This document shows, in pieces, positions 5,756 to 48,020 of a DNA stretch of 64,000 bases (positions are counted from its first letter, which is position 1; the number at the start of each line of letters is the position of its first letter). The DNA is taken from positions 39,324 to 103,323 of the forward strand of contig CAJXFH010000002.1 in assembly GCA_913052565.1 (NCBI GenBank). The letters run 5' to 3'. Source of the stretch: an uncultured Gammaproteobacteria bacterium. GTDB lineage: Bacteria > Pseudomonadota > Gammaproteobacteria > Magnimaribacterales > TMED112. The notes beneath the pieces are model-generated. The model saw only the letters and a program-made list of their open reading frames with translations, ran no database searches and was not told where the DNA came from. The translations under genes and the position numbers were made by a program.

Positions 5756-7143
5756 ATCTCTTCTCCTGTTTCCTCTGAAAACTTATATTTTGATTCTTCA
5801 ATTTTTTTCAGAATCATATATGTAAGTATATGTTTTTTTGAGACAAGATACTTAATTAAACCTTTGACACTATACTTGTCTTTGAGCCATTTTTTTATGA
5901 AAGGATCTGCAACTGACCAAAAGTCTAGATCAGGGTAGATTTGCCTACCCATACCTTCAATATGAATTAAAGTTTTCACTAGCAGAATAAGGTCATTATC
6001 CAGAAATAAATCAAACTGTTTCATTCCGTCAAATAAGTTTAAGAGTAATTCACCGAATAAAATTTCATTAAGTGGTTTATCAAGTAAGCTTTCGCAATTT
6101 GCACGGAGTACAGCCTCAAGGTCCTCTGTTTTTGTTTTTTCGTCTACCCACTCAGCAAAAATAAATAATTGAGCAAGTGAAAAGAAATCTCTATCAAGCA
6201 AACATGAAATCATTTGTGCTAAAAGGATCTGGTTTGATTCTGTGAGTGATCCACATATTGCATAATCAACAGCATAATAATAAGGATCATTTGGTTTATC
6301 TTTGGCTGCAAAGATATTTCCTGGATGCATGTCTGCATGGAAAAAATTATCCTCAAAAACTTGCTTTAAGAAAATCTGAACACCATTTTCCGATAGTTTT
6401 TTTAAATCAAGCCCATAAGCTCGGAGATTTGAAACATTTGTAATTGGTTCTCCGTCTATGTATTCCATTACTAAAGTTTTTTTAGTGGTAAATTCATCAT
6501 GAATTCTTGGTACATATAGAAATGAACTGTGAGCAAAATTACTAAAAGTCTTTTTTGCATTTGCAGCTTCAAGCCTGAAATCAAGCTCATTTGTTATTAC
6601 TTTTTCATAGTCATTTACAACAAGATTTAGATCTACACGTGGATATCCCTTATAAAAGAATCTCAATGCTTTCACAGCAAATCGCAAAGCATCAATATCT
6701 CTTTGAATCTGTTTTTCAAGACCAGGCCTTTGAACTTTTACAACTAATTCTTCATTGTTCAGTGTTACTCTATGAACTTGAGCTAGCGAAGCAGATGCTA
6801 AGGGCACCGCATCAATATTCTTTAGTAAGGTATCTGCTCGTTGACCAAGATTTCTTTTCAATTCCTCCTTGATGTACGAAAAATCTATAGGCTCGCAGCT
6901 ATCAGTGAGCTCTTTAAGATTGCTAGCTAGTTCTTGACTAATAAGGTCAGTCCTGGTTGAAAGCAGTTGCCCAAGTTTTATAAATACGGGCCCAAGATTC
7001 TCAAGCGATTTCTTAAATTTATTTTCAATATCTTTAGGTCTTGCAAACTGTTTTAAAAAGGGATTGAATCCATCAACAAAAAGATGAAATATTCCACTTG
7101 ATCTTAGTGTAAAGAAGATTTCAAGAAGCCTTAATATTTTCAT
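5752..7143 (-). CDS. ubiB: ubiquinone biosynthesis regulatory kinase-like protein UbiB (ABC1/AarF family)
   Basis: 463 aa. It has the motifs GPVFIKLGQLLSTRTDL and ASLAQVH, and it sits in ubiE-ubiB-tat synteny. It is shorter than the ~546-aa E. coli protein, and no C-terminal TM pair is seen. Confidence 0.85.
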   Translation of the reverse strand: MKILRLLEIFFTLRSSGIFHLFVDGFNPFLKQFARPKDIENKFKKSLENLGPVFIKLGQLLSTRTDLISQELASNLKELTDSCEPIDFSYIKEELKRNLGQRADTLLKNIDAVPLASASLAQVHRVTLNNEELVVKVQRPGLEKQIQRDIDALRFAVKALRFFYKGYPRVDLNLVVNDYEKVITNELDFRLEAANAKKTFSNFAHSSFLYVPRIHDEFTTKKTLVMEYIDGEPITNVSNLRAYGLDLKKLSENGVQIFLKQVFEDNFFHADMHPGNIFAAKDKPNDPYYYAVDYAICGSLTESNQILLAQMISCLLDRDFFSLAQLFIFAEWVDEKTKTEDLEAVLRANCESLLDKPLNEILFGELLLNLFDGMKQFDLFLDNDLILLVKTLIHIEGMGRQIYPDLDFWSVADPFIKKWLKDKYSVKGLIKYLVSKKHILTYMILKKIEESKYKFSEETGEEI

Positions 7144-7889
7144 TTTATTCCTTTATGAATTGACACTATTCCTTTAAAAATATTTTCATAACTGACTGAA
7201 CTGAATCCTGCTTCATTGAAAAGTTTCACGAGCTCTTCTTGATTCTCATGAGTTCTTATAGACTTTACCAGATATTCATAACTGGCTTTATCACCGGAAA
7301 CTAGCTCTCCTAAAGTTGGAATTACATTAAAGCTATAAAAGTCATAAAGCTTATTGAATGATTCTCCCTCAGGCTTTGAAAATTCAAGAATTTGCAATTG
7401 ACCGCCTTCTTTAAGAACTCTCATTATTTCTTTCAATGCCTTTGGTTTGTCTGAAAAGTTTCTGAAACCAAAAGATATGAATACATGATCAAAGAAACTA
7501 TCTGAATATGGTAGCTTTTCAGCACTTGACACAGCAAAATGACATTTATTAATAAACCCTTCATTTACTGATCTTTCTTTAGCTTGATCAATCATATCTG
7601 AATTTTGATCACACAAATACACAGTTTTACCTTTAACTTTTTTTGACAAAATTTTTGAAATATCTCCTGTTCCTGCAGCCAAATCCAAACATTTATGATT
7701 TCTTTCAACCGCTGCAGAATTAACATAAGAGGATTTCCATAATCTATGCATGCCCACTGACATCAAATCATTCATAAGATCATAATTATCTGAAACTCTG
7801 GAAAATATATCCTCTACTCCAGTCTTCTTTTGCCCCTTGGAAACTTTCTTGTCTCCAAAGAATACTTTTTGATTATCTTTATCGCTCAT
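7140..7889 (-). CDS. ubiE: demethylmenaquinone / ubiquinone C-methyltransferase UbiE
   Basis: 249 aa. It has YDLMNDLMSVGMHRLWK and the SAM-binding DLAAGTGD motif. It overlaps ubiB by 4 nt. Confidence 0.9.
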   Translation of the reverse strand: MSDKDNQKVFFGDKKVSKGQKKTGVEDIFSRVSDNYDLMNDLMSVGMHRLWKSSYVNSAAVERNHKCLDLAAGTGDISKILSKKVKGKTVYLCDQNSDMIDQAKERSVNEGFINKCHFAVSSAEKLPYSDSFFDHVFISFGFRNFSDKPKALKEIMRVLKEGGQLQILEFSKPEGESFNKLYDFYSFNVIPTLGELVSGDKASYEYLVKSIRTHENQEELVKLFNEAGFSSVSYENIFKGIVSIHKGIK

Positions 7890-39935: not shown

Positions 39936-41216
39936 ATGGAATTCATAATAGAAAATTTTTATTTAATTTTAGCCTCAAGTATTATTTTTGGCTTTTTTAT
40001 GGCATATGGAATAGGCGCAAATGATGTTGCTAATGCCATGGGAACCTCTGTTGGTAGCAAAGCTTTAACACTTACCCAGGCTTTAGTGATTGCTGCAATA
40101 TTTGAATTCTTAGGAGCATATTTTGCAGGAGCATCTGTAACCGCAACAATTAGAGAGAACATTGTTGATCCAAGCCTTTATGATGATTCACCAGATGTCT
40201 TTGTTCTTGGCATGATGGCAAGTTTGCTTGCAGCAGGTGCTTGGCTATTAATTTCAACGACTTTTGGCCTTCCTGTATCTACAACACATGCAATTATTGG
40301 AGCCATTGCTGGATTTTCAATCTACTACATTGGTTGGGCATCAGTCAGCTGGACTTATATTTTAGGCGTTACATTTTCATGGCTCATAACACCATTTCTT
40401 GCAGCTGTACTTTCAGGTTTGCTTTATTACAGTGCGAAAAAACTTGTGCTTACTGCTGAAAAGCCAATTGAAGCAGCACGACAATTCATACCAATGTATG
40501 CCGGTTTGGTGGGTTTTAGTATAGCGGCTATAACTCTCAACAAAGGACTAACTAATACACAAGTACCAATTTTAATTTCTGAGTATTTCGCGGGTTATGA
40601 TTTGATAGCAACAATATTTGGTATTGCATTATTTGTTGCGCTTCTTTGTTATGCCATTTCAAGATTTCTTTTATCACATTATGTAAGCAAATCTGATAAT
40701 CCAAATGTTGAAGGTAAGTTTGCAATATTGATGATATTCACTGCATCCTCAATTGCTTTTGCTCATGGTTCTAATGATGTCGCAAATGCTGTAGGACCAA
40801 TGGCAGCAGTAGTTGCCACTATTGAGAACCTTGGTCAGATAAATACTGTTGCAGTGATACCTGAATGGATCTTACTCACGGGAGCAATAGGAATAGTAAT
40901 TGGTATGCTTACGCTTGGTTATAAGGTTATAAGAACTGTTGGAGAAAAAATTACTAAGCTCAAACCAAGTAAAGGTTTTGCTGCCGAAATGGCAACTGCT
41001 ATTGTTGTTGTAGTGGGAAGTGTGGCTGGAATTCCTCTTTCAACAACACACACATTAGTTGGAGCAGTAATTGGAATAGGTGTTTTTAGTAGCAATAAGG
41101 TCAATTATAATTCCGTGATTCAAATCGGAGCATCTTGGCTCATAACAATTCCTGGTGGTGCAATTCTTTCAATAATCTTTTTTGTACTGTTAAAATCTAT
41201 TTTCGGAGTAGCTTGA
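39936..41216 (+). CDS. pit: inorganic phosphate transporter, PiT family
   Basis: 426 aa, polytopic, with the duplicated PiT signatures GANDVANAMGTSVGS and GSNDVANAVGP. Confidence 0.9.
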   Translation: MEFIIENFYLILASSIIFGFFMAYGIGANDVANAMGTSVGSKALTLTQALVIAAIFEFLGAYFAGASVTATIRENIVDPSLYDDSPDVFVLGMMASLLAAGAWLLISTTFGLPVSTTHAIIGAIAGFSIYYIGWASVSWTYILGVTFSWLITPFLAAVLSGLLYYSAKKLVLTAEKPIEAARQFIPMYAGLVGFSIAAITLNKGLTNTQVPILISEYFAGYDLIATIFGIALFVALLCYAISRFLLSHYVSKSDNPNVEGKFAILMIFTASSIAFAHGSNDVANAVGPMAAVVATIENLGQINTVAVIPEWILLTGAIGIVIGMLTLGYKVIRTVGEKITKLKPSKGFAAEMATAIVVVVGSVAGIPLSTTHTLVGAVIGIGVFSSNKVNYNSVIQIGASWLITIPGGAILSIIFFVLLKSIFGVA

Positions 41217-41704
41217 TGGAGTTTGAATATTGGATTGAATTGGTAAACAAAATAGTGAATATAATCACAGGGCCAGCGGTGATCTTTAGTGTCTGGTTTC
41301 TTGTTGCGCAAATACAAACTCAAATTAAAGTCGGTAAGGCAGCATCTCGTCAATCAATTGCAGAAGCACATCAGGAAGTTACTCTTGCAGGCCTTGACCC
41401 ACTTTTAATGAGAGCCAAATTGAAACTTATAAAAAAAGAAGAGTTATCTATTGATGAAGAAGTTGGTTTAAGAATACATATGACAGCAATTTTAAGAGCA
41501 AGAGAAAATCACTTTTATCAACATAAGATGGGCATGTTAGATGACGAAGAATGGAAAACCATGAGAAAAGCACTAGGAACGTTATTTATCGATAACACAC
41601 TAAATCTGGATATTTGGAGTAAAAGTAAATCAACTTTTAATCCTGAGTTTGTCCGTATAGTTGACGAAGAAATAGAAATGAGAAAGGATACCTTTAAAAA
41701 ATGA
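41216..41704 (+). CDS. hypothetical single-TM helical protein
   Basis: 162 aa counting from the ATG that overlaps the pit stop (TGATG). It has an N-terminal TM (IITGPAVIFSVWFLVAQI) followed by a charged helical region. No family is recognised. The track start 41135 lies inside pit. Confidence 0.5.
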   Translation: MEFEYWIELVNKIVNIITGPAVIFSVWFLVAQIQTQIKVGKAASRQSIAEAHQEVTLAGLDPLLMRAKLKLIKKEELSIDEEVGLRIHMTAILRARENHFYQHKMGMLDDEEWKTMRKALGTLFIDNTLNLDIWSKSKSTFNPEFVRIVDEEIEMRKDTFKK

Positions 41705-42789
41705 GCGACAAAACCCAACTAAAATTCATCTCAAAAGCTTTGCTTATGCATCAAAGACCATTTCTTATTACAAAGACAGATGGAGATGTTCTTTGGATTA
41801 ATAACGCTGGAAAATACATCTTTTCAATGGAAGATAATGACAAGCTTGATCTTATCTTTGTTGATAAAAAAGACTTAGATAAAGCTAAGTTTGATTCAGA
41901 TATAGCAGACTCATTCGATGTATTTTTAAAAATAAATTTAAGGGCACAAAGTCTCTATATGCGTGTGCTTTTACATGTAATACCTGTAGAAGATGAAAAT
42001 TATTATTTGGTTGAATTTGTTTCAAACTCAAAAGAAAATCTCTTCGCCTTAAAAACTGTTATATCTTGTTTAGAAAATGATCGAATAGGTATGTATTATC
42101 AAAAGCAGTACAGGCTTACTGGTAAAAAAGAAGTCACAGGTGTTGAAGCGCTGATTAGGTTTTTCAATGAGGATGGCTCAATTATTCCTAATGACAAGAT
42201 TATTCCTTATATCGAAGGGGAAAGTATTTTTTCTCTTGTGGTTACTTCTTCCATGAATCTAGTAAAAGAGTTTTTTGATGCGAGAAAGGAAAAGGGTCTT
42301 GACGGAACAACTTTATATTTTAATGTTTCTGCACACACAGTTCTGCATAAAGACTTTTTATCAATATTTAAAGAATTCATAAATAGCTCTGGAATAAAGA
42401 AAGGTGATTTTGGTATTGAAGTTACTGAAACAGCAGAACTGAATAATTTATCTTTAGCATCTTTGAGATTATCAAGTATTAAGAATCTTGGTGTTTCAAT
42501 AGCATTAGATGATTTTGGGGCTGGCTACTCAGCTCTAAGATATTTAAAGGACTTACCTATAGACCTTCTCAAGCTTGACAAAAGTTTTACCAATGAAATG
42601 GCTGAGGCACACAATCAAAGCTTAATTCAGATTGCAAAGCTCATGGCTGATTCATTATCTATGGAATTTATTTGTGAAGGGTTGGAAGAAGAATGGCAGA
42701 TTGAGAAAGCCATTTCTTTAGGCTGTGAGCGCGGGCAGGGGTATTTCCTTCATAAGCCATGTAGCCTTGATGACCTAAATAATGAATAA
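41701..42789 (+). CDS. PAS-like sensor + EAL domain c-di-GMP phosphodiesterase
   Basis: 362 aa. The N-terminal ~110 aa are PAS-like (PFLITKTDGDVLWINNAGKYIF). The EAL signature set is intact: EALIRF, FNVS, EVTE, DDFGAGYS, KLDKSF, EGLEEE, GQGY. Confidence 0.85.
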   Translation: MSDKTQLKFISKALLMHQRPFLITKTDGDVLWINNAGKYIFSMEDNDKLDLIFVDKKDLDKAKFDSDIADSFDVFLKINLRAQSLYMRVLLHVIPVEDENYYLVEFVSNSKENLFALKTVISCLENDRIGMYYQKQYRLTGKKEVTGVEALIRFFNEDGSIIPNDKIIPYIEGESIFSLVVTSSMNLVKEFFDARKEKGLDGTTLYFNVSAHTVLHKDFLSIFKEFINSSGIKKGDFGIEVTETAELNNLSLASLRLSSIKNLGVSIALDDFGAGYSALRYLKDLPIDLLKLDKSFTNEMAEAHNQSLIQIAKLMADSLSMEFICEGLEEEWQIEKAISLGCERGQGYFLHKPCSLDDLNNE

Positions 42790-44221
42790 GAAAGAAAAGA
42801 TAATTCTTACACAAATTAAACAAGATTTTACTACCCCTGTTGATGCAATTTCTGATTATATAAACCTCATAATAGATAGCTCAGATATTTATGAAGATGA
42901 AATATCAGATGAATTTGAAAATATAAGAAAATCTTCTAGGACTTTAAGAGTTAATTTTAATGAGGCATTTTCTGAGTATGCTGAGCTTAAAAAGAAAACA
43001 ATCGCAAATGACGAGGAAGCATCTATCCTTAGGCATGATCTCCGTACACCTCTTAATGGAATAATAGGATACAGTGAAATTCTGATAGAAGATTATGAAG
43101 ACGACATAGACGAAAAACATAATCAAGATTTAAACCACATAATTGATTTAGCAAAAGAAGTTGAGGGAGCAATTTCAAGATTTGTCGATTTTCTTAAAGG
43201 TGGAGCTGAAAAAGATGCTGAAGAACAATCAGATGATGATAGTGCCGAAAACTTATTTAGTTCACTTGGGAAAATTGAGTACAAGCTTGAAATTATTGAT
43301 GAAATTAAGGAAGCAAAAATACTTGTTGTCGATGATATAAAAACAAATTGTGATGTTCTAAAAAGAAGACTTGAAAGTTTTGAATTTAAAGTTGATGTTA
43401 GCATGTCAGGCAAAGACGCTTTGGAGCAAATTTCAAATAATAAATATGATCTTGTCCTTCTGGATGTACTTATGCCTGAGGTTAATGGTTTAGAGGTGTT
43501 AATAAAGATTCGAGAACAATATTCAGCAGATAAATTACCCGTAATAATGGTTTCTTCATTTGATGATGTTGAAAGCATCTCGAAATGCATTCAGCTTGGG
43601 GCGTCAGATTACTTGTCAAAACCTGTAAATTCGACAATTCTCACACAAAAGGTGGCTTCGACACTTGAAAGAAAATCATTAAGAGAAAGAGAAGAACAGC
43701 TTCTATCAGAGCTGCATAGGCAAGCCATTACTGACGAAATGACGGGTATTCCGAATAGAAGATATGTTTTTGATCATTTAGAGAAAAGTTTTGATGACAT
43801 AGAAAAAAATTCAAAGGAACATTTTGCAGCAGCAATATTCGATATTGATCATTTCAAGCATGTGAATGATACTTACGGTCATGCCGCTGGAGATGAAATA
43901 ATCAAGAAGGTCAGTAATATTGCTACTTCAGTTGTAACAGCTCCTGATATATTTGGAAGAATAGGCGGCGAAGAATTTTTAGCTGTGGTTTATAACAATT
44001 CTAAGAATCATCTAGAACAAATTTGTGAAAAAATAAGAACAAGTATTGAGAATGAAGAAACTTTATTTGATAATCAAAAAATAAGAGTAACAATAAGCGG
44101 CGGTGTTTGCTTTAGTGATGAAAGCACCAGTGTTTCTGATTTGGTAAACAAAGCTGATGAAAGACTCTACCTTGCCAAGAAAAATGGCAGAAATAGATTC
44201 TATTTAAGTGAGGAAACGTAA
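42782..44221 (+). CDS. tandem DHp(HisKA-like) - REC - GGDEF protein (diguanylate cyclase response regulator with kinase-less His module)
   Basis: 479 aa. Residues ~11-65 form a degenerate H-box helix hairpin (QDFTTPVDAISDY). Residues ~80-139 form a canonical H-box (RHDLRTPLNGIIGYSE, His85). There are no N/G1/F/G2 ATPase boxes. The REC domain is complete (DD184-185, D228, S, K). The GGDEF domain has GGEEF, and the RxxD I-site position reads TAPD. Confidence 0.85.
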   Translation: MNKKEKIILTQIKQDFTTPVDAISDYINLIIDSSDIYEDEISDEFENIRKSSRTLRVNFNEAFSEYAELKKKTIANDEEASILRHDLRTPLNGIIGYSEILIEDYEDDIDEKHNQDLNHIIDLAKEVEGAISRFVDFLKGGAEKDAEEQSDDDSAENLFSSLGKIEYKLEIIDEIKEAKILVVDDIKTNCDVLKRRLESFEFKVDVSMSGKDALEQISNNKYDLVLLDVLMPEVNGLEVLIKIREQYSADKLPVIMVSSFDDVESISKCIQLGASDYLSKPVNSTILTQKVASTLERKSLREREEQLLSELHRQAITDEMTGIPNRRYVFDHLEKSFDDIEKNSKEHFAAAIFDIDHFKHVNDTYGHAAGDEIIKKVSNIATSVVTAPDIFGRIGGEEFLAVVYNNSKNHLEQICEKIRTSIENEETLFDNQKIRVTISGGVCFSDESTSVSDLVNKADERLYLAKKNGRNRFYLSEET

Positions 44222-44580
44222 TGGCTTACATTTTAATTGTTGAAGATAATGAGATGAACAGAGATATGCTCGGTAGAAGGCTTGAGAGAAGAGGGTTTGA
44301 AATTCAATTTGCTCTCGATGGCCAAGAAGGTCTGGATAGTATGAGAGCAAGAAAACCTGATTTGGTTTTAATGGATATGGGCTTACCTGTATTAGATGGT
44401 TGGCAAGCTACGTCCCAAGCTAAAGAGGATCCTGAACTCAAAGATATACCTATTATTGCTCTAACAGCTCATGCTTTAGAAACAGATAGACAAAAAGCTC
44501 TAGCAGCAGGTGCAGATGATTTTGATACCAAGCCAGTCGATATAAAGAGATTGCTAGAAAAAATAGGTAAATTTATTTAG
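44221..44580 (+). CDS. stand-alone receiver (CheY-like) response regulator
   Basis: 119 aa with ILIVEDNE, LVLMDMGLP, ALTAH and DTKP. Its start overlaps the upstream stop (TAATG). Confidence 0.9.
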   Translation: MAYILIVEDNEMNRDMLGRRLERRGFEIQFALDGQEGLDSMRARKPDLVLMDMGLPVLDGWQATSQAKEDPELKDIPIIALTAHALETDRQKALAAGADDFDTKPVDIKRLLEKIGKFI

Positions 44581-47500
44581 AGTCTTCGCCCTTTAAAATC
44601 TGATTCACTTCATTAACCAACGTTTGAACTTTTGACTCTTTCTTAACAATGCCCTCAGTGAATTTGCTTAACATTTTTTCTTCAACTGCTGTAATATCCT
44701 TTCCTGAAAAAACAACAATAGGAATTTTAATTCCATCCTCTTGAGTTCGCTCAATAAATTCGAAGCCATCCATTTTTGGCATATCTAGGTCTAAAACAAT
44801 GAGGTCTGGTTTCTCCTTAACTCTTTCTAATGCATCTTCACCATTTTTGGCATCAATTGAAAGATAACCCTCATTATTTAGAATTTTGTTTAAAAGGTCT
44901 CTTGTATTTTCATCATCATCAACAATTAATACTTTCTGATTTTTTTCTGTTATATATCTTTTAACGATATTGAGGAAAAAAGTTCTATCAATTGGCTTCT
45001 TCATATAATCATCAGCACCAAGTGAAGTCGCAAGACTCTCTTCATTTAAAACTGATGTAATTACTACAGGGATATCTTTTAGTTTTTTGTCTTTTTTTAA
45101 CTCTTTTAAGACAGACCAACCATCTCTTCCAGGCATTAAAACGTCAAGCAATATGAGCTTAGGAGTATTTTTCCTTGCTTGTTCTATCCCTTCATCTCCA
45201 TCAAAACAACTAAAGACTGTATGACCCTCTTTTTTGATTGCCCTTTTTACAACATCGTGAGTAGCTTTATCATCATCTACCAAAAGAATATATTCATCAC
45301 CGTCTTTAATATCTGGATTTTCAAAATCCTCATCTTCAACTGTTTCCTCATCTATTGAAACGCGGGGTACATATATGCTGAATGTACTTCCTTCTCCAAC
45401 TTTGCTTGATACTTCTACACCCCCGCCCATCATTTCAGCAAAATGCTTTGATATCGATAATCCGAGACCGGTACCACCATACTTTGCGCTTGTAGACCTT
45501 TCAGCCTGAGTATATGTGTCAAATAATTTACCTAATTGTTCTTCTGACATTCCAATACCTGTATCTTTAATATCAAAGTTAACAAATTCTTTACCATCAA
45601 CATCTTTAGAGGTAATGACTAATGCAACTTGTCCATTCTCTGTAAATTTAAAAGCGTTACTCAAGAAATTTACGATACATTGTCGAAGCTTTGTCTCATC
45701 ACTTGTCATTTCACCACCAATATTATTTTTGATAATAAATTCATTATTATTCTTAGCAGCTAAAGGATTCGACACATCTTTAATTGTTTCAATCATCACA
45801 TCTATATTGAATGGAGTGAAATACATATCCATTTTTCCTGCTTCTATCTTCGATAAATCAAGAACATTATTAATAAGAGATAGAAGGTGTTTGCTTGAAT
45901 TAGTAATTCTTTTAAGATCCGGTACCATGTCATCATTGCCTAAATCCTCGCAATCCTCTAAAAGCATTTCACTATATCCAATAATAGCGTTTAGCGGTGT
46001 TCTAAGCTCATGCGACATATTTGCGAAGAATCTAGATTTTGCCGAACTCGCTTCACGGGCTTCGTCTCGTGCAGTTGCCATTTCTTTTGTTTTGAGATCA
46101 ATCAAAGCATTAACTTCATCTGACATTCTTGAAAACGCAAGCTCCATCATTTCAACTGATGCTTCCTCAGCTTTTTCATCAGAAGCTTCATTTACAAGAT
46201 TCTTCATATTCTGAACATCTTTTTGAATAAGAGTTTTGGCTTCGCCTTCTAATTTTTCAGATAATATGCTCATCTTTTTAATGATCACTTCATCTCTTTG
46301 TTTTCTACGCTCAGCTCTATCTTGTCTAACTGAATCCATTTCAAGTAAGTGATTTCTGTATCTCGCTAGTGCGTTAGATAATTGCCCAACTTCATTAGTT
46401 TCTGAGGACAGAAAACCTTTATTAGACGGGATGGTTTTTTTGGTATCTCCTTTTGTAAGTGCCTCGAGGACTTCAATAGCTTGCGCAATTCTACTAAAAG
46501 CACCATCTTGCACCCACCAAATTGCTAAAACTATAAGAATGATCACGCCAAATGTGAAAATAATAGAATTTAATGTTGAGTCTCTTAGTTCTTTAAGATC
46601 GTTGGCAACATTCTTGATTACAAAAAATAAAGCAAAGTCAGGGTTAACAGTTGATGCAACAGGTACTGAAGTTAATGAAAGTCCAAGTGCCTCAAAATTT
46701 TTGGAATTCATGTTTTCGAGACCATTTTTTAGAATATCGTTTTTAATATAATTAAAACTAACTTGATTAATGCCAAGTGAGTCGTCTTGAGATAGGCCAT
46801 CAGTAAAAACTGCATCAATAATTTTGTTTTGACTTACAATTCCAGTACGAACACCAAGATCACTTTCAAATACTGTCATTGACTGCCTAAGATCTCGACC
46901 GAGTATCACTGATCCTAAAAGTTTATTGGTATTGAATCCAAACTCATTTTTTAAGTAGATTGGAAAAGCTACGATTTGATGCAAATTTATATTTCCATTT
47001 GGAGCTTGAGCATAAATTACCTCGTTTGTAACGCTCATCCTGCTTCTGATTTTTTCTAGGAATGCTCCTGTTGAATCGTCTCTAAGAAAATTAAGATCAT
47101 TTGAATCGCCACAAACATCTATTGAATTACCTACATCTGCCCAGTCAAAGGCATAAAGACAAGTAAGCTCTTCATTATTCTCATTGAAAAGTTTTATAAA
47201 GCTTATGTTCCCTTCATCAATTTCGTCTAAGAACATTTCATCCACTAAAATAAAAAGATCGCCTCGAAGCTCTTGATCGAAAGATTCAATTAATGCATTC
47301 GCGTAGTCAAAACCTTCTATACCAATTTCTGTGAATAGACCAATTTCAACGTAAGGATTCCAGTATTGCTCACCTTTCTCTCCATTTGGCCCCCAAGAGT
47401 TCATATTTGAAAAACTGTTATCTATGGACTGAACCCATGCTGATTCTACAATGCTTGTATATTGACTGTTAGATGATTTTTCTTGAATGCTCTGATTCTG

Positions 47501-47581
47501 AACATTCATATATAGCAATGTGCCAGCAATAATAATATTGCCTATTAGACCAAATATAAGGATTTGGGTTCTTACAAGCAT
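44573..47581 (-). CDS. hybrid sensor histidine kinase (TM - periplasmic domain - TM - HAMP - HisKA - HATPase_c - REC - REC)
   Basis: 1002 aa with the H-box MSHELRTPLNAIIGYSE, N-box NFLSNAFKFT, G1 DTGIGM and G2 GGTGLGLSI. Both receivers are complete (LLDVLMPGRDG and VLDLDMPKMDG). The ~310-aa periplasmic region is unclassified. Confidence 0.9.
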   Translation of the reverse strand: MLVRTQILIFGLIGNIIIAGTLLYMNVQNQSIQEKSSNSQYTSIVESAWVQSIDNSFSNMNSWGPNGEKGEQYWNPYVEIGLFTEIGIEGFDYANALIESFDQELRGDLFILVDEMFLDEIDEGNISFIKLFNENNEELTCLYAFDWADVGNSIDVCGDSNDLNFLRDDSTGAFLEKIRSRMSVTNEVIYAQAPNGNINLHQIVAFPIYLKNEFGFNTNKLLGSVILGRDLRQSMTVFESDLGVRTGIVSQNKIIDAVFTDGLSQDDSLGINQVSFNYIKNDILKNGLENMNSKNFEALGLSLTSVPVASTVNPDFALFFVIKNVANDLKELRDSTLNSIIFTFGVIILIVLAIWWVQDGAFSRIAQAIEVLEALTKGDTKKTIPSNKGFLSSETNEVGQLSNALARYRNHLLEMDSVRQDRAERRKQRDEVIIKKMSILSEKLEGEAKTLIQKDVQNMKNLVNEASDEKAEEASVEMMELAFSRMSDEVNALIDLKTKEMATARDEAREASSAKSRFFANMSHELRTPLNAIIGYSEMLLEDCEDLGNDDMVPDLKRITNSSKHLLSLINNVLDLSKIEAGKMDMYFTPFNIDVMIETIKDVSNPLAAKNNNEFIIKNNIGGEMTSDETKLRQCIVNFLSNAFKFTENGQVALVITSKDVDGKEFVNFDIKDTGIGMSEEQLGKLFDTYTQAERSTSAKYGGTGLGLSISKHFAEMMGGGVEVSSKVGEGSTFSIYVPRVSIDEETVEDEDFENPDIKDGDEYILLVDDDKATHDVVKRAIKKEGHTVFSCFDGDEGIEQARKNTPKLILLDVLMPGRDGWSVLKELKKDKKLKDIPVVITSVLNEESLATSLGADDYMKKPIDRTFFLNIVKRYITEKNQKVLIVDDDENTRDLLNKILNNEGYLSIDAKNGEDALERVKEKPDLIVLDLDMPKMDGFEFIERTQEDGIKIPIVVFSGKDITAVEEKMLSKFTEGIVKKESKVQTLVNEVNQILKGEDSK

Positions 47582-47590
47582 TTTGAAAAA

Positions 47591-47962
47591 TTATTCGTCT
47601 GCTAACTTGAATGTGAAACGAGCCGTTACATCATTAACAGTTACAGGAACTCCATTATAGACGTAAGGTTCATAAGCCCACCTTCTAATCGTTCTCATTA
47701 CACTTCTTTCAAAATAACCTGGTTGGTCAGTATCTGTGACATAAGGATCAACAACTTCACCTTCAGGTGAAACATCAAACTCAACTACAACAAATCCCTC
47801 AGTACCACGTCTAAGTGCTGATCTTGGGTAATCTGCAGATGGTGAATATATCCTTTCAACTGAAACTTCTATTACTTCACCGTTAACAGTAATACTACCT
47901 TCATCACTTGCTGGGAAAAGCGCTAGAGAGAATAATAAAAATAAACTTGATAGGTATCTCAT
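47591..47962 (-). CDS. periplasmic TonB C-terminal-domain protein (no TM anchor or Pro-rich linker)
   Basis: It has the signal peptide MRYLSSLFLLFSLALFPA. ADYPRSALRRGTEGFVVVEFDVSPEGEVV matches the TonB_C pattern YP..A...G.EG.V.V.F.V...G.V. The track TTG start at 47980 is an alternative. Confidence 0.75.
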   Translation of the reverse strand: MRYLSSLFLLFSLALFPASDEGSITVNGEVIEVSVERIYSPSADYPRSALRRGTEGFVVVEFDVSPEGEVVDPYVTDTDQPGYFERSVMRTIRRWAYEPYVYNGVPVTVNDVTARFTFKLADE

Positions 47963-48020
47963 GTTTTGAATTATATACAAAAAAGCTTTTATTTAATACA
48001 TGATTTAATATTTCTTAAAA

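What the first reader, a model, noticed from the sequence alone, without database searches (positions are those of the whole stretch)
42782..43231. Kinase-less tandem DHp module (one degenerate Gln box, one His box) fused to REC-GGDEF: possible pseudo-dimeric HPt surrogate
The first ~150 aa of the 479-aa protein contain two HisKA-type helix-hairpin units. Unit 1 reads QIKQDFTTPVDAISDYINLI, with Gln14 (codon 42821-42823) where the phospho-His should be. Unit 2 reads ILRHDLRTPLNGIIGYSEIL, with His85 (codon 43034-43036). No N/G1/F/G2 ATP-binding boxes follow; an acidic linker leads straight into REC. Two DHp hairpins in one chain could fold into an intramolecular four-helix bundle with a single phosphorylatable His. 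That would be functionally equivalent to an HPt, or to Spo0B/ChpT-type phosphotransferases, which are DHp-derived. It would supply the relay step missing between the neighbouring hybrid kinase and the REC-GGDEF or stand-alone REC. I do not recognise this as a described architecture.
Basis: inference. Interest (0 to 1): 0.7.

Follow-up and report, generated by a model that had tools for sequence, protein, structure and literature searches.

The report
Kinase-less tandem DHp relay module
A SAR86 diguanylate cyclase carries two copies of the histidine-kinase phospho-acceptor hairpin (one with His, one with a conserved Gln) but no kinase domain; they are predicted to fold into one four-helix bundle that probably passes phosphate from a small partner receiver protein to the cyclase, and this undescribed module occurs in other bacterial groups too.

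Summary
ORF 42782-44221 (479 aa) is [DHp unit 1, Gln14][DHp unit 2, His85]-linker-REC-GGDEF, with no room for an ATPase domain and none detected. Unit 1 is a true duplicated DHp: profile-profile matches are 99.1% to unit 2 and 98.7% to the DHp of real kinases, with Gln14 aligned on the phospho-His.

The Gln is conserved, not decayed: at least 90% of 115 diverse family members have it, and His85 is invariant. AlphaFold2 predicts a compact single-chain four-helix bundle (pTM 0.85).

The two-unit module is widespread. It sits in front of REC-GGDEF, REC-adenylate/guanylate cyclase or REC-kinase outputs, and is sometimes repeated as whole Gln+His pairs.

In every context I could read, a 119-126 aa single-domain receiver lies directly beside it. 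These receivers are 57-89% identical to each other. The kinase next to the pair is hybrid or plain and never shows an HPt domain.

Best reading, inferred and not shown: a Spo0F/Spo0B/Spo0A-like relay, kinase to small receiver to His85 to Asp228, switching on c-di-GMP synthesis. The Gln face would be a second, non-phosphorylatable receiver-docking face. No paper in the searched library describes this. I rate it a new variant of DHp-derived phosphotransferases.

The parts
42782..44221 (+). Whole gene: tandem-DHp - REC - GGDEF protein, 479 aa
   Evidence: ORF list and sequence; Pfam HisKA, REC and GGDEF, no HATPase_c; full-length orthologues in 41 SAR86 species
42782..42997 (+). DHp unit 1 (residues 1-72): helices 3-32 and 39-68, carrying the Gln box QIKQDFTTPVDAISDYINLI
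   Evidence: hhalign vs unit 2 99.1% and vs kinase DHp 98.7%; AF2 helices with pLDDT >90
42821..42823 (+). Gln14 codon (CAA), at the position of the phospho-acceptor His
   Evidence: Gln in 21/26 diverse modules and >=90% of 115 sequences
42998..43216 (+). DHp unit 2 (residues 73-145): helices 77-104 and 111-140+, carrying the H box ILRHDLRTPLNGIIGYSEIL
   Evidence: Pfam HisKA 44.6 bits; hhalign vs kinase DHp 99.7%, E 1.2e-26; 44% identical to the DHp of the neighbouring hybrid kinase; most conserved segment of the protein in SAR86
43034..43036 (+). His85 codon (CAT), the predicted phosphotransfer histidine
   Evidence: His in 25/26 diverse modules, invariant in 115 sequences
43217..43318 (+). 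Acidic linker (residues 146-179) with the conserved short motif ENLFSSLGKIEY (43244-43279)
   Evidence: Low pLDDT apart from a short helix 156-160; motif conserved in SAR86 orthologues and recognisable in distant members
43319..43654 (+). Receiver domain (residues 180-291); Asp184/Asp185, phospho-acceptor Asp228 (43463-43465), Ser258, Lys280
   Evidence: Pfam Response_reg 3.8e-28; residues located
43724..44197 (+). GGDEF diguanylate cyclase domain (residues 315-472); GGEEF at 43964-43978; I-site RxxD replaced by TAPD
   Evidence: Pfam GGDEF 3.3e-40; NCBIfam PleD/DgcR-like; motifs
44221..44580 (+). Single-domain receiver (119 aa, Asp52 at 44374-44376); its start overlaps the stop of the cyclase gene; proposed Spo0F-like partner
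   Evidence: Pfam REC; same family found directly beside the module gene in every readable context; 57-89% identical across contexts vs 24-37% to other receivers
44573..47581 (-). Convergent hybrid histidine kinase (1002 aa): HisKA (His524 at 46010-46012), HATPase_c, REC1 (Asp813), REC2 (Asp931); no HPt
   Evidence: Pfam; NCBIfam BarA/TorS/LuxQ-like core; conserved next to the cluster in SAR86; residues. An N-terminal sensor region flanked by two hydrophobic stretches is my reading of the sequence only; no topology tool was run.
41701..42789 (+). Upstream EAL phosphodiesterase (362 aa, weak PAS-like N-terminus); its stop overlaps the start of the cyclase gene
   Evidence: Pfam EAL 1.4e-44; conserved in the SAR86 cluster; an EAL gene also lies beside the GGDEF-type relatives in L047 and L051

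Best explanation
The first ~145 residues are an internal duplication of the histidine-kinase DHp hairpin. The two copies are predicted to pack against each other in one chain, giving the same four-helix bundle that two kinase subunits normally form together. The bundle is asymmetric: one face carries the phosphorylatable His85, and the other carries a conserved Gln14 that cannot be phosphorylated.

With no ATPase domain, the bundle cannot autophosphorylate. I propose that it acts as the second histidine station (H2) of a multistep relay:
1. The sensor kinase autophosphorylates at His524.
2. Phosphate moves to the conserved single-domain receiver (Asp52), or to the kinase's own receivers.
3. 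It moves on to His85.
4. It reaches Asp228 of the fused receiver. That receiver then activates the GGDEF domain to make c-di-GMP, and the co-transcribed EAL enzyme degrades it.

This works like Spo0F-Spo0B-Spo0A or CckA-ChpT-CtrA, but the DHp-type transferase is a single-chain pseudo-dimer fused to the terminal regulator.

The Gln face keeps most of the receiver-contact motif (Q-[ED]-x-x-[TA]-P...A-I..Y). It is most likely a second docking face for a receiver, used for parking, as a decoy or for dephosphorylation.

What is shown: the architecture, the homology of both units, the conservation, the predicted fold and the conserved gene partnership. What is inferred: every phosphotransfer step, the monomeric state and the role of Gln14.
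For: - Both units are DHp homologues, with Gln14 aligned on the phospho-His.
- No HATPase_c is detected.
- AF2 gives four ~30-residue helices with short loops: pLDDT 82 and pTM 0.74 with 9 sequences; pLDDT 89.9 and pTM 0.85 with 115 sequences, all five models at 88-90.
- Foldseek matches only single-chain up-down four-helix bundles.
- The unit 1-unit 2 linker is short (residues 69-76). In relatives it contains Pro/Gly, which argues against a continuous helix.
- The Gln+His pair is the evolutionary unit. P0025 and P0030 have three complete pairs and P0031 has two. Nearly all modules have exactly one His per pair.
- The module always precedes REC plus an output: GGDEF, Guanylate_cyc or GAF-HisKA-HATPase.
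- A single-domain receiver of one orthologous family lies directly beside the module gene in SAR86 and in about nine other contexts (L042, L043, L044-46, L048, L049, L050, L051, L052, L053). These receivers are 57-89% identical to each other, while the modules are only ~25-30% identical to the window's.
- Neighbouring kinases are hybrid without a listed HPt (window, L044, L051) or plain (L050).
- The small receiver's NCBIfam hits include the receiver domains of hybrid kinases such as BarA, ArcB, TorS, LuxQ and RcsC (alongside PhoB and PleD); those receiver domains hand phosphate to HPt domains.
- Unit 2 is 44% identical to the neighbouring kinase's DHp, including the helix-1 stretch after the His.
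- The 64-kb window holds no other DHp or REC ORF and no HxxKG-type HPt motif.
- Receiver and GGDEF catalytic residues are intact.
Against: - There are no experimental data, so phosphorylation of His85 is untested.
- Only monomer AF2 runs were possible. Two hairpins in one chain would tend to be packed together by AF2 whatever the truth, so a homodimeric arrangement is not excluded.
- No coordinates were available, so exposure of His85 and the geometry relative to Asp228 could not be checked.
- Absence of HPt was tested only in this 64-kb window and in the Pfam lists of neighbouring genes, not genome-wide.
- A kinase could phosphorylate Asp228 directly, which would make a relay unnecessary.
- The SAR86 loci were retrieved with unit-1 peptide patterns, so Gln14 conservation within SAR86 is partly ascertainment. 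The wider sets were retrieved with whole-module profiles, which carry a mild bias of the same kind.
Confidence: 0.55

Rival explanations
1. Dimerisation scaffold. The two DHp units pair between two chains (unit 1 with unit 1', unit 2 with unit 2', or swapped). They mainly hold together outputs that only work as dimers (GGDEF, class III cyclase, kinase core). His85 would be vestigial or only a minor regulatory site.
For: Every output fused to the module is an obligate homodimer enzyme (the dimer requirement is from established knowledge of GGDEF, class III cyclases and histidine kinases). Canonical DHp domains are homodimeric. AF2 was run only on a monomer.
Against: His85 and the whole H box are the most conserved part of the protein, which is not expected of a mere zipper. 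The Gln box keeps receiver-contact residues. Units occur and duplicate strictly as Gln+His pairs. The short Pro/Gly-containing inter-unit linker and pTM 0.85 favour an intramolecular bundle. A dedicated small receiver always accompanies the module, which a scaffold role does not explain.
Confidence: 0.17
2. Receiver phosphatase or phosphate-sink module. The kinase phosphorylates Asp228 directly. The tandem DHp, without a kinase domain, works only in the reverse direction: it dephosphorylates the fused receiver or the small receiver, or shuttles phosphate back from Asp228 through His85 to the small receiver acting as a sink. This would set the lifetime of the signal.
For: Unit 2 keeps the HisKA motif H-D-x-x-T (HDLRT) and, in SAR86, unit 1 keeps Q-D-x-x-T. 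From my knowledge of HisKA kinases, not checked in papers here, the T/N at His+4 is the phosphatase determinant. Also from my knowledge, amide side chains are the catalytic residues of other receiver phosphatases (CheZ, CheX, Rap, and the DxxxQ motif of HisKA_3). A conserved stand-alone receiver beside the gene fits a sink.
Against: In the wider family the His+4-equivalent position in unit 1 is Ala as often as Thr (11 each of 26). A canonical HisKA phosphatase site on the Gln face is therefore not conserved. A pure phosphatase would not need an invariant His. This reading overlaps with the main one, because His85 is still a phosphotransfer site in the sink version.
Confidence: 0.15
3. DivL-like reversed sensor. 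The non-phosphorylatable Gln face binds the phosphorylated small receiver. This reports its phosphorylation state allosterically to the attached REC-output, without any phosphoryl transfer through the module.
For: In Caulobacter, DivL is a kinase-like protein whose DHp has Tyr instead of His and has been repurposed to sense phosphorylated DivK (PMC4211667, seen). DivK is among the closest solved relatives of the small receiver. DivL appears among the weak PDB sequence hits of the module. One relative (P0033) has a Tyr in place of the His in one unit.
Against: This does not explain the invariant His85 and its intact H box. It could coexist with phosphotransfer on the other face rather than replace it.
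Confidence: 0.1

Closest known systems
Spo0B (Bacillus sporulation phosphotransferase) in the Spo0F-Spo0B-Spo0A relay
   Same: A DHp-type helical hairpin carries a His that shuttles phosphate between two receivers. It forms a four-helix bundle and has no autokinase activity. The upstream donor is a single-domain receiver (Spo0F), matching the conserved small receiver here.
   Different: Spo0B is a symmetric homodimer with two His sites and an extra C-terminal alpha/beta domain, and it is a free-standing protein. Here the bundle is predicted to be a single chain with one His and one conserved Gln, it has no extra domain, and it is fused to the terminal regulator. Neither Pfam nor NCBIfam listed a Spo0B-type family among their matches.
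ChpT (Caulobacter CckA-ChpT-CtrA/CpdR)
   Same: A kinase-derived DHp phosphotransferase placed between a hybrid kinase receiver and downstream receivers.
   Different: ChpT is a homodimer with a degenerate CA-like domain, symmetric His sites and no fusion to a receiver.
HPt domains (ArcB, BarA and TorS C-termini, LuxU, ShpA, Ypd1; Pfam PF01627)
   Same: The proposed role is the same: a monomeric four-helix bundle with one solvent-exposed His that relays phosphate from a hybrid-kinase receiver to a terminal receiver.
   Different: There is no sequence relationship: no Pfam Hpt hit and no HxxKG motif. The module is clearly HisKA-derived. Foldseek did not return HPt structures among its top 50 hits.
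HmrB of Caulobacter (putative atypical HPT, PMC11481889)
   Same: A kinase-less helical hairpin is proposed to build an HPt-like four-helix bundle and to act in a relay linked to c-di-GMP and adhesion.
   Different: HmrB is a single hairpin predicted to homodimerise. Here two hairpins are covalently linked and asymmetric (His/Gln).
DivL pseudo-kinase and RetS-GacS DHp heterodimers
   Same: These are DHp bundles in which a phospho-acceptor site is missing or silent and the surface is used to bind a receiver or a partner. DivL has Tyr for His and senses DivK~P (PMC4211667).
   Different: Those proteins keep CA domains and are inter-chain dimers. Here the silent site (Gln) and the live site (His) would sit in the same chain.
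REC-GGDEF response regulators (PleD, WspR, DgcR, Rrp1)
   Same: The C-terminal two thirds form a standard phosphorylation-activated diguanylate cyclase with intact Asp228 and GGEEF.
   Different: As far as I know (from memory, not checked here), none of these has an N-terminal kinase-less DHp module. The RxxD inhibitory site is absent here (TAPD).

Membership tests
HisKA / DHp domain (Pfam PF00512) | Sequence match to the HisKA profile above the curated cut-off | tested here: met
   Unit 2 scores 44.6 bits vs the 26.9 cut-off. Unit 1 gets no Pfam hit but matches by profile-profile comparison: 99.1% to unit 2 and 98.7% to kinase DHp.
HisKA / DHp domain (Pfam PF00512) | Phospho-acceptor His in the H box (H-E/D-x-x-T/N-P) | tested here: met
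   Unit 2 has H85-D-L-R-T-P. Unit 1 fails this feature: it reads Q14-D-F-T-T-P, with Gln in place of His.
HisKA / DHp domain (Pfam PF00512) | Antiparallel two-helix hairpin that builds a four-helix bundle | tested here: met
   AF2 predicts four ~30-residue helices with pTM 0.85. This is a prediction only.
Functional histidine kinase | HATPase_c catalytic domain with N, G1, F and G2 boxes following the DHp | tested here: not met
   No HATPase_c family at E<=1. Residues 146-179 are a linker that runs directly into REC. The protein is not a kinase.
HPt domain (PF01627) | Match to the Hpt profile and the HxxKG signature around the His | tested here: not met
   No Hpt hit at E<=1 and no HxxKG...G motif in any window ORF. 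It may work like an HPt but is not a member.
HPt domain (PF01627) | Monomeric four-helix bundle with one exposed His | tested here: inconclusive
   A monomeric bundle is predicted. The oligomeric state and His exposure could not be tested because no coordinates or multimer runs were available.
Spo0B/ChpT-type phosphotransferases | Kinase-less DHp hairpin with a His that exchanges phosphate with receivers | not testable with these tools
   The architecture fits. Phosphotransfer itself needs biochemistry.
Spo0B/ChpT-type phosphotransferases | Symmetric homodimer plus a C-terminal CA-like alpha/beta domain | tested here: not met
   No such domain is present; the chain goes from the bundle through a linker into REC. 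The two units are asymmetric (Gln/His).
REC-GGDEF response regulator (PleD/DgcR-like) | Receiver with the acidic pair, phospho-Asp, S/T and Lys; GGDEF with GG[DE]EF | tested here: met
   D184, D185, D228, S258 and K280 are present, and GGEEF lies at 395-399.
Proposed new family: tandem Gln/His DHp module with partner receiver | Two-unit module N-terminal to REC-output, with an orthologous single-domain receiver encoded directly beside it | tested here: met
   Seen in the window, in the SAR86 loci wherever the contig extends far enough, and in about nine other contexts.

The most novel reading that the evidence does not exclude
This would be a previously unrecognised class of phosphotransfer protein found in several bacterial groups: a single-chain, intrinsically asymmetric DHp bundle with one live His face and one conserved Gln face. 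It would form an obligate pair with a dedicated, highly conserved single-domain receiver and gate second-messenger cyclases (c-di-GMP, cAMP/cGMP) or further kinases. The Gln face would be a built-in receiver phosphatase or decoy site, so that one small bundle both relays and resets the signal. In SAR86, one of the most abundant marine bacterial groups, it would be the missing H2 step of an HPt-less phosphorelay.
Probability: 0.35. Interest if true: 0.8.

Novelty: new variant of a known kind. Interest (0 to 1): 0.68.

Why it matters
Multistep phosphorelays are thought to need either an HPt domain or a dimeric Spo0B/ChpT-type transferase. A covalently linked, asymmetric DHp pseudo-dimer would be a third solution. 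It would explain how hybrid kinases without any HPt partner signal, which is a common annotation puzzle.

The invariant pairing with one highly conserved small receiver gives a directly testable three-protein system. The conserved Gln at the phospho-His position offers a natural experiment on what a DHp face does when it cannot be phosphorylated.

The module controls c-di-GMP or cyclic-nucleotide synthesis. It is present in SAR86 and in marine alphaproteobacteria (Rhodobiaceae/Rhizobiales), and source names of related sequences suggest other groups too. It is currently annotated only as 'diguanylate cyclase', 'adenylate cyclase' or 'histidine kinase', so signalling censuses probably miscount it.

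Tried and rejected
- BLASTP of unit 1 vs unit 2 found nothing significant. Pfam and NCBIfam do not see unit 1. Only profile-profile comparison resolved it.
- A cryptic ATPase domain is rejected: there is no hit and no room.
- Foldseek against the PDB with both models returned only generic four-helix bundles, none at E<=0.001 and no HPt, Spo0B or ChpT. This is uninformative for function.
- Apparent free-standing tandem-DHp proteins of 170-260 aa on long contigs looked like autonomous transferases. In L042, L043 and L048 they turned out to be frameshifted assemblies of module-REC-cyclase genes. I therefore dropped the claim that free-standing forms exist; L049 remains unresolved.
- Some 'two-unit' hits (P0089, P0130, P0150, P0062) do not show the unit-1 motif and were excluded. 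In P0130 the extra segment coincides with a HAMP domain.
- Literature searches for tandem or kinase-less DHp/HisKA, HisKA-REC-GGDEF and SAR86 two-component systems found no description. One search was wasted on 'pseudo-dimer' chemistry papers.
- The search with the small receiver returned only unnamed or 'CheY-like' SAR86 proteins.
Full report
**1. The observation**

The window encodes a 479-aa protein on the + strand at 42782-44221.

Pfam assigns HisKA to residues 77-140 (44.6 bits, cut-off 26.9), a receiver to 180-291 and GGDEF to 315-472. No HATPase_c-type family appears even at E<=1, and NCBIfam sees only PleD/DgcR-like REC-GGDEF matches. The assigned domains plus a 34-residue acidic linker account for the whole chain. 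A hidden ATP-binding domain is therefore excluded.

Unit 1 (residues 1-72) is invisible to Pfam and to BLASTP against unit 2. Alignments of family members settle the matter:
- The unit 1 profile matches the unit 2 profile with 99.1% probability (E 9e-19, 60 columns), with Gln14 on His85.
- It matches the DHp of 41 genuine kinases that also carry a CA domain with 98.7% probability (E 1.6e-16), with Gln on the phospho-His.

The protein therefore does carry two DHp hairpins and no kinase domain.

**2. Conservation, and the Gln is not decay**

The organism is a SAR86 gammaproteobacterium. Full-length orthologues were found in 41 SAR86 species at 45-86% identity. Those loci were retrieved with peptide patterns from unit 1, so Gln14 conservation within them is partly ascertainment.

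A search with the whole module against 1.84 billion representative proteins gave 1770 hits at E<=0.001. About 25 diverse proteins among the listed hits matched both units. In 26 such modules the Gln position is Gln in 21 and the His position is His in 25. In a 115-sequence alignment, most rows only 22-30% identical to the window, Gln14 is at least 90% conserved and His85 is invariant.

Unit 1 has its own consensus, R-Q-E-x-x-[TA]-P-x-x-A-I-x-x-Y-x-E-L. This retains the Pro kink and several positions that, in canonical kinases, contact the receiver. Rare variants have His/His (P0169, L049) or His/Tyr (P0033).

**3. Structure**

AlphaFold2 on residues 1-175 with nine close homologues gave helices 3-32, 39-68, 77-104 and 111-140, with pLDDT mostly above 90 and pTM 0.74. 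On residues 1-150 with the 115-sequence alignment, mean pLDDT was 89.9 and pTM 0.85, and all five models scored 88-90.

Foldseek against the PDB returns only single-chain up-down four-helix bundles: designed maquettes, pectin methylesterase inhibitor and ferritin-like proteins. None reaches E<=0.001, and no HPt, Spo0B or ChpT appears.

Geometry fits a pseudo-dimer. In a DHp dimer, helix 2 of one subunit ends next to the start of helix 1 of the other, so an 8-residue linker (69-76) can join them. That step is my inference. In relatives this linker contains Pro or Gly, which argues against a continuous helix.

The caveat is real. Only monomers could be modelled, no coordinates were returned, and AlphaFold would tend to pack two hairpins of one chain together regardless.

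**4. The pair is the evolutionary unit**

Three cyclase-linked relatives contain several modules. P0025 and P0030 each have three complete Gln/His-type pairs, and P0031 has two. The hairpins always come as first-type then second-type. This fits a two-hairpin structural unit better than independently dimerising hairpins.

**5. A wider family with variable outputs**

The module precedes REC-GGDEF (SAR86; P0036; P0041 from marine Rhodobiaceae/Rhizobiales), REC-adenylate/guanylate cyclase (P0097, P0025, P0030, P0031) or REC-GAF3-HisKA-HATPase and REC-HisKA-HATPase-REC (P0065, P0033).

Sources annotate these proteins only as diguanylate cyclase, adenylate cyclase, histidine kinase or hypothetical. 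Short 'stand-alone' versions on long contigs proved, in the three cases resolved (L042, L043, L048), to be frameshifted long-read assemblies of fused genes.

**6. Gene context: the strongest functional clue**

In SAR86 the cluster is conserved in all 41 loci, as far as each contig extends. Its order is: orf189, EAL, tandem-DHp-REC-GGDEF, single-domain receiver, then a convergent hybrid kinase followed by a TonB_C protein.

Outside SAR86, a 120-126 aa single-domain receiver lies directly beside the module gene in every context I could read:
- L042 and L048: giant hybrid kinase, receiver, module gene.
- L043: receiver, then module gene.
- L044-46: periplasmic binding protein, TorS-like hybrid kinase without a listed HPt, receiver, module-REC-cyclase.
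- L049: receiver, then module gene.
- L050: a plain kinase, receiver, triple-module-REC-cyclase, then another plain kinase.
- L051: a weak PilZ hit, EAL, module-REC-GGDEF, receiver and a convergent hybrid kinase. This is the same layout as SAR86, in an alphaproteobacterium.
- L052 and L053: receiver, then module gene.

L047 ends 37 bases after the gene and is uninformative.

These small receivers form one orthologous family. They are 57-89% identical to each other across contexts in which the modules share only about 25-30% identity with the window's, and only 24-37% identical to the other receivers of the locus. Their closest solved relatives are DivK and the first receiver of PleD. Their NCBIfam hits include the receiver domains of the hybrid kinases BarA, ArcB, TorS, LuxQ and RcsC, alongside PhoB and PleD.

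The invariant partner of the module is thus the small receiver, while the kinase type varies.

**7. Mechanism proposed**

The kinase cannot hand phosphate from its own receiver, or from the small receiver, to another receiver without a histidine intermediate. No HPt is seen in the kinase, in the neighbours' Pfam lists or as a motif in the 64-kb window. The window contains no other DHp or receiver ORF.

I therefore propose this route: kinase His524, to the small receiver Asp52 (or the kinase receivers Asp813/Asp931), to His85, to Asp228, and then GGDEF activation. The overlapping upstream EAL gene would provide turnover. This is the logic of Spo0F-Spo0B-Spo0A and CckA-ChpT-CtrA, with the DHp-type transferase made single-chain and fused to the last regulator.

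Unit 2 is 44% identical to the kinase's own DHp, including the helix-1 stretch after the His. This fits recognition of the same class of receivers. The receiver and GGDEF catalytic residues are intact, and the RxxD inhibitory site is absent.

The Gln face is probably a second receiver-docking face that cannot accept phosphate. Whether it parks a receiver, acts as a phosphatase or senses the phosphorylated small receiver as DivL does (PMC4211667) is open. The Thr at His+4, which I recall as the phosphatase determinant of HisKA kinases, is kept in unit 1 in SAR86. It is Ala in about 40% of the wider family, so a canonical phosphatase site is not a family trait.

**8. Rivals**

- A dimerisation scaffold for obligately dimeric outputs.
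- A phosphatase or sink module running in reverse.
- A DivL-like sensor.

Each explains part of the data. None explains as well the combination of an invariant His, a conserved Gln box, paired duplication and an ever-present dedicated small receiver. All await biochemistry.

**9. Comparison with known systems, and novelty**

The module is a member of the HisKA/DHp superfamily. It is not a kinase, not an HPt domain, and not a Spo0B/ChpT family member, because it lacks their extra domain and their symmetry.

The nearest recent precedent is HmrB, a hairpin predicted to dimerise into an HPt-like bundle (PMC11481889). A recent preprint acknowledges 'incomplete' kinases lacking the ATPase domain but does not analyse them (10.64898/2026.02.27.708494). 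Full-text searches for tandem or two DHp/HisKA domains, HisKA-REC-GGDEF and DHp-only proteins found no description of this architecture.

I rate it a new variant of a known kind (DHp-derived phosphotransferase). It is of real interest because it is widespread, comes with a defined partner, and is directly testable.

Noticed in passing
window 44221-44580 (+); L042-L053 neighbours: The single-domain receiver is the most conserved protein of the cluster: 70-94% identical within SAR86 where the other cluster proteins drop to 38-50%, and 57-65% identical to counterparts in unrelated bacteria. It carries an ALTAHA motif at beta-4 rather than the FATGUY motif described for some intermediary receivers (PMC9981736).
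   Followed up: partly
window 43244-43279 (residues 155-166): A short conserved motif, ENLFSSLGKIEY, lies inside the otherwise variable acidic linker between the DHp bundle and the receiver. Similar hydrophobic patches (for example ERLFSTLN, DLLNKIG) are visible in distant family members. It could be a fifth helix or a docking element.
   Followed up: no
window 41135-41704 (+): An ORF of up to 189 aa has no Pfam family above cut-off and, by eye, one hydrophobic stretch. It overlaps the end of the upstream ORF 39936-41216 (a membrane protein I took to be a phosphate transporter from its sequence; not scanned) and abuts the EAL gene. It is conserved at this position in nearly all SAR86 loci. Function unknown; it may belong to the signalling operon.
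   Followed up: partly
window 47591-47980 (-): A 129-aa protein with a TonB_C domain, whose N-terminus looks hydrophobic and signal-peptide-like by eye, is encoded immediately upstream of the hybrid kinase on the same strand. It is conserved there in nearly all SAR86 loci that extend that far. It may be a periplasmic partner of the kinase's N-terminal sensor region.
   Followed up: partly
window 44573-44580: The 3' ends of the small receiver gene (+) and the hybrid kinase gene (-) overlap convergently by 8 bases. The EAL and cyclase genes overlap by 8 bases (42782-42789), and the cyclase stop overlaps the receiver start (TAATG at 44219-44223). The packing is very tight.
   Followed up: no
L051:4833-5150 (-): In the marine Rhodobiaceae/Rhizobiales version of the cluster, a small protein with a weak PilZ hit (a c-di-GMP receptor domain) sits next to the EAL gene. 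This hints at the downstream effector. I did not look for an equivalent in the SAR86 window.
   Followed up: no
L053:1886-4321 (P0033); L049:6001-6522 (P0212): Variants of the pair exist. P0033 has His in the first unit and Tyr in the second (RYELGTP), followed by REC and a complete hybrid kinase. P0212 and P0169 have His in both units.
   Followed up: partly
L042, L043, L048 (module genes at about 6001-7600): Long-read metagenome assemblies split the module-REC-cyclase gene by frameshifts inside the receiver. This creates false 'stand-alone HisKA' proteins of 213-243 aa in protein databases.
   Followed up: yes
window 44576-44900 (HHK residues ~884-992): The second receiver of the hybrid kinase keeps Asp931 but lacks the usual Lys-Pro near beta-5 (it reads VKKE). 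It may be a degenerate or regulatory receiver.
   Followed up: no
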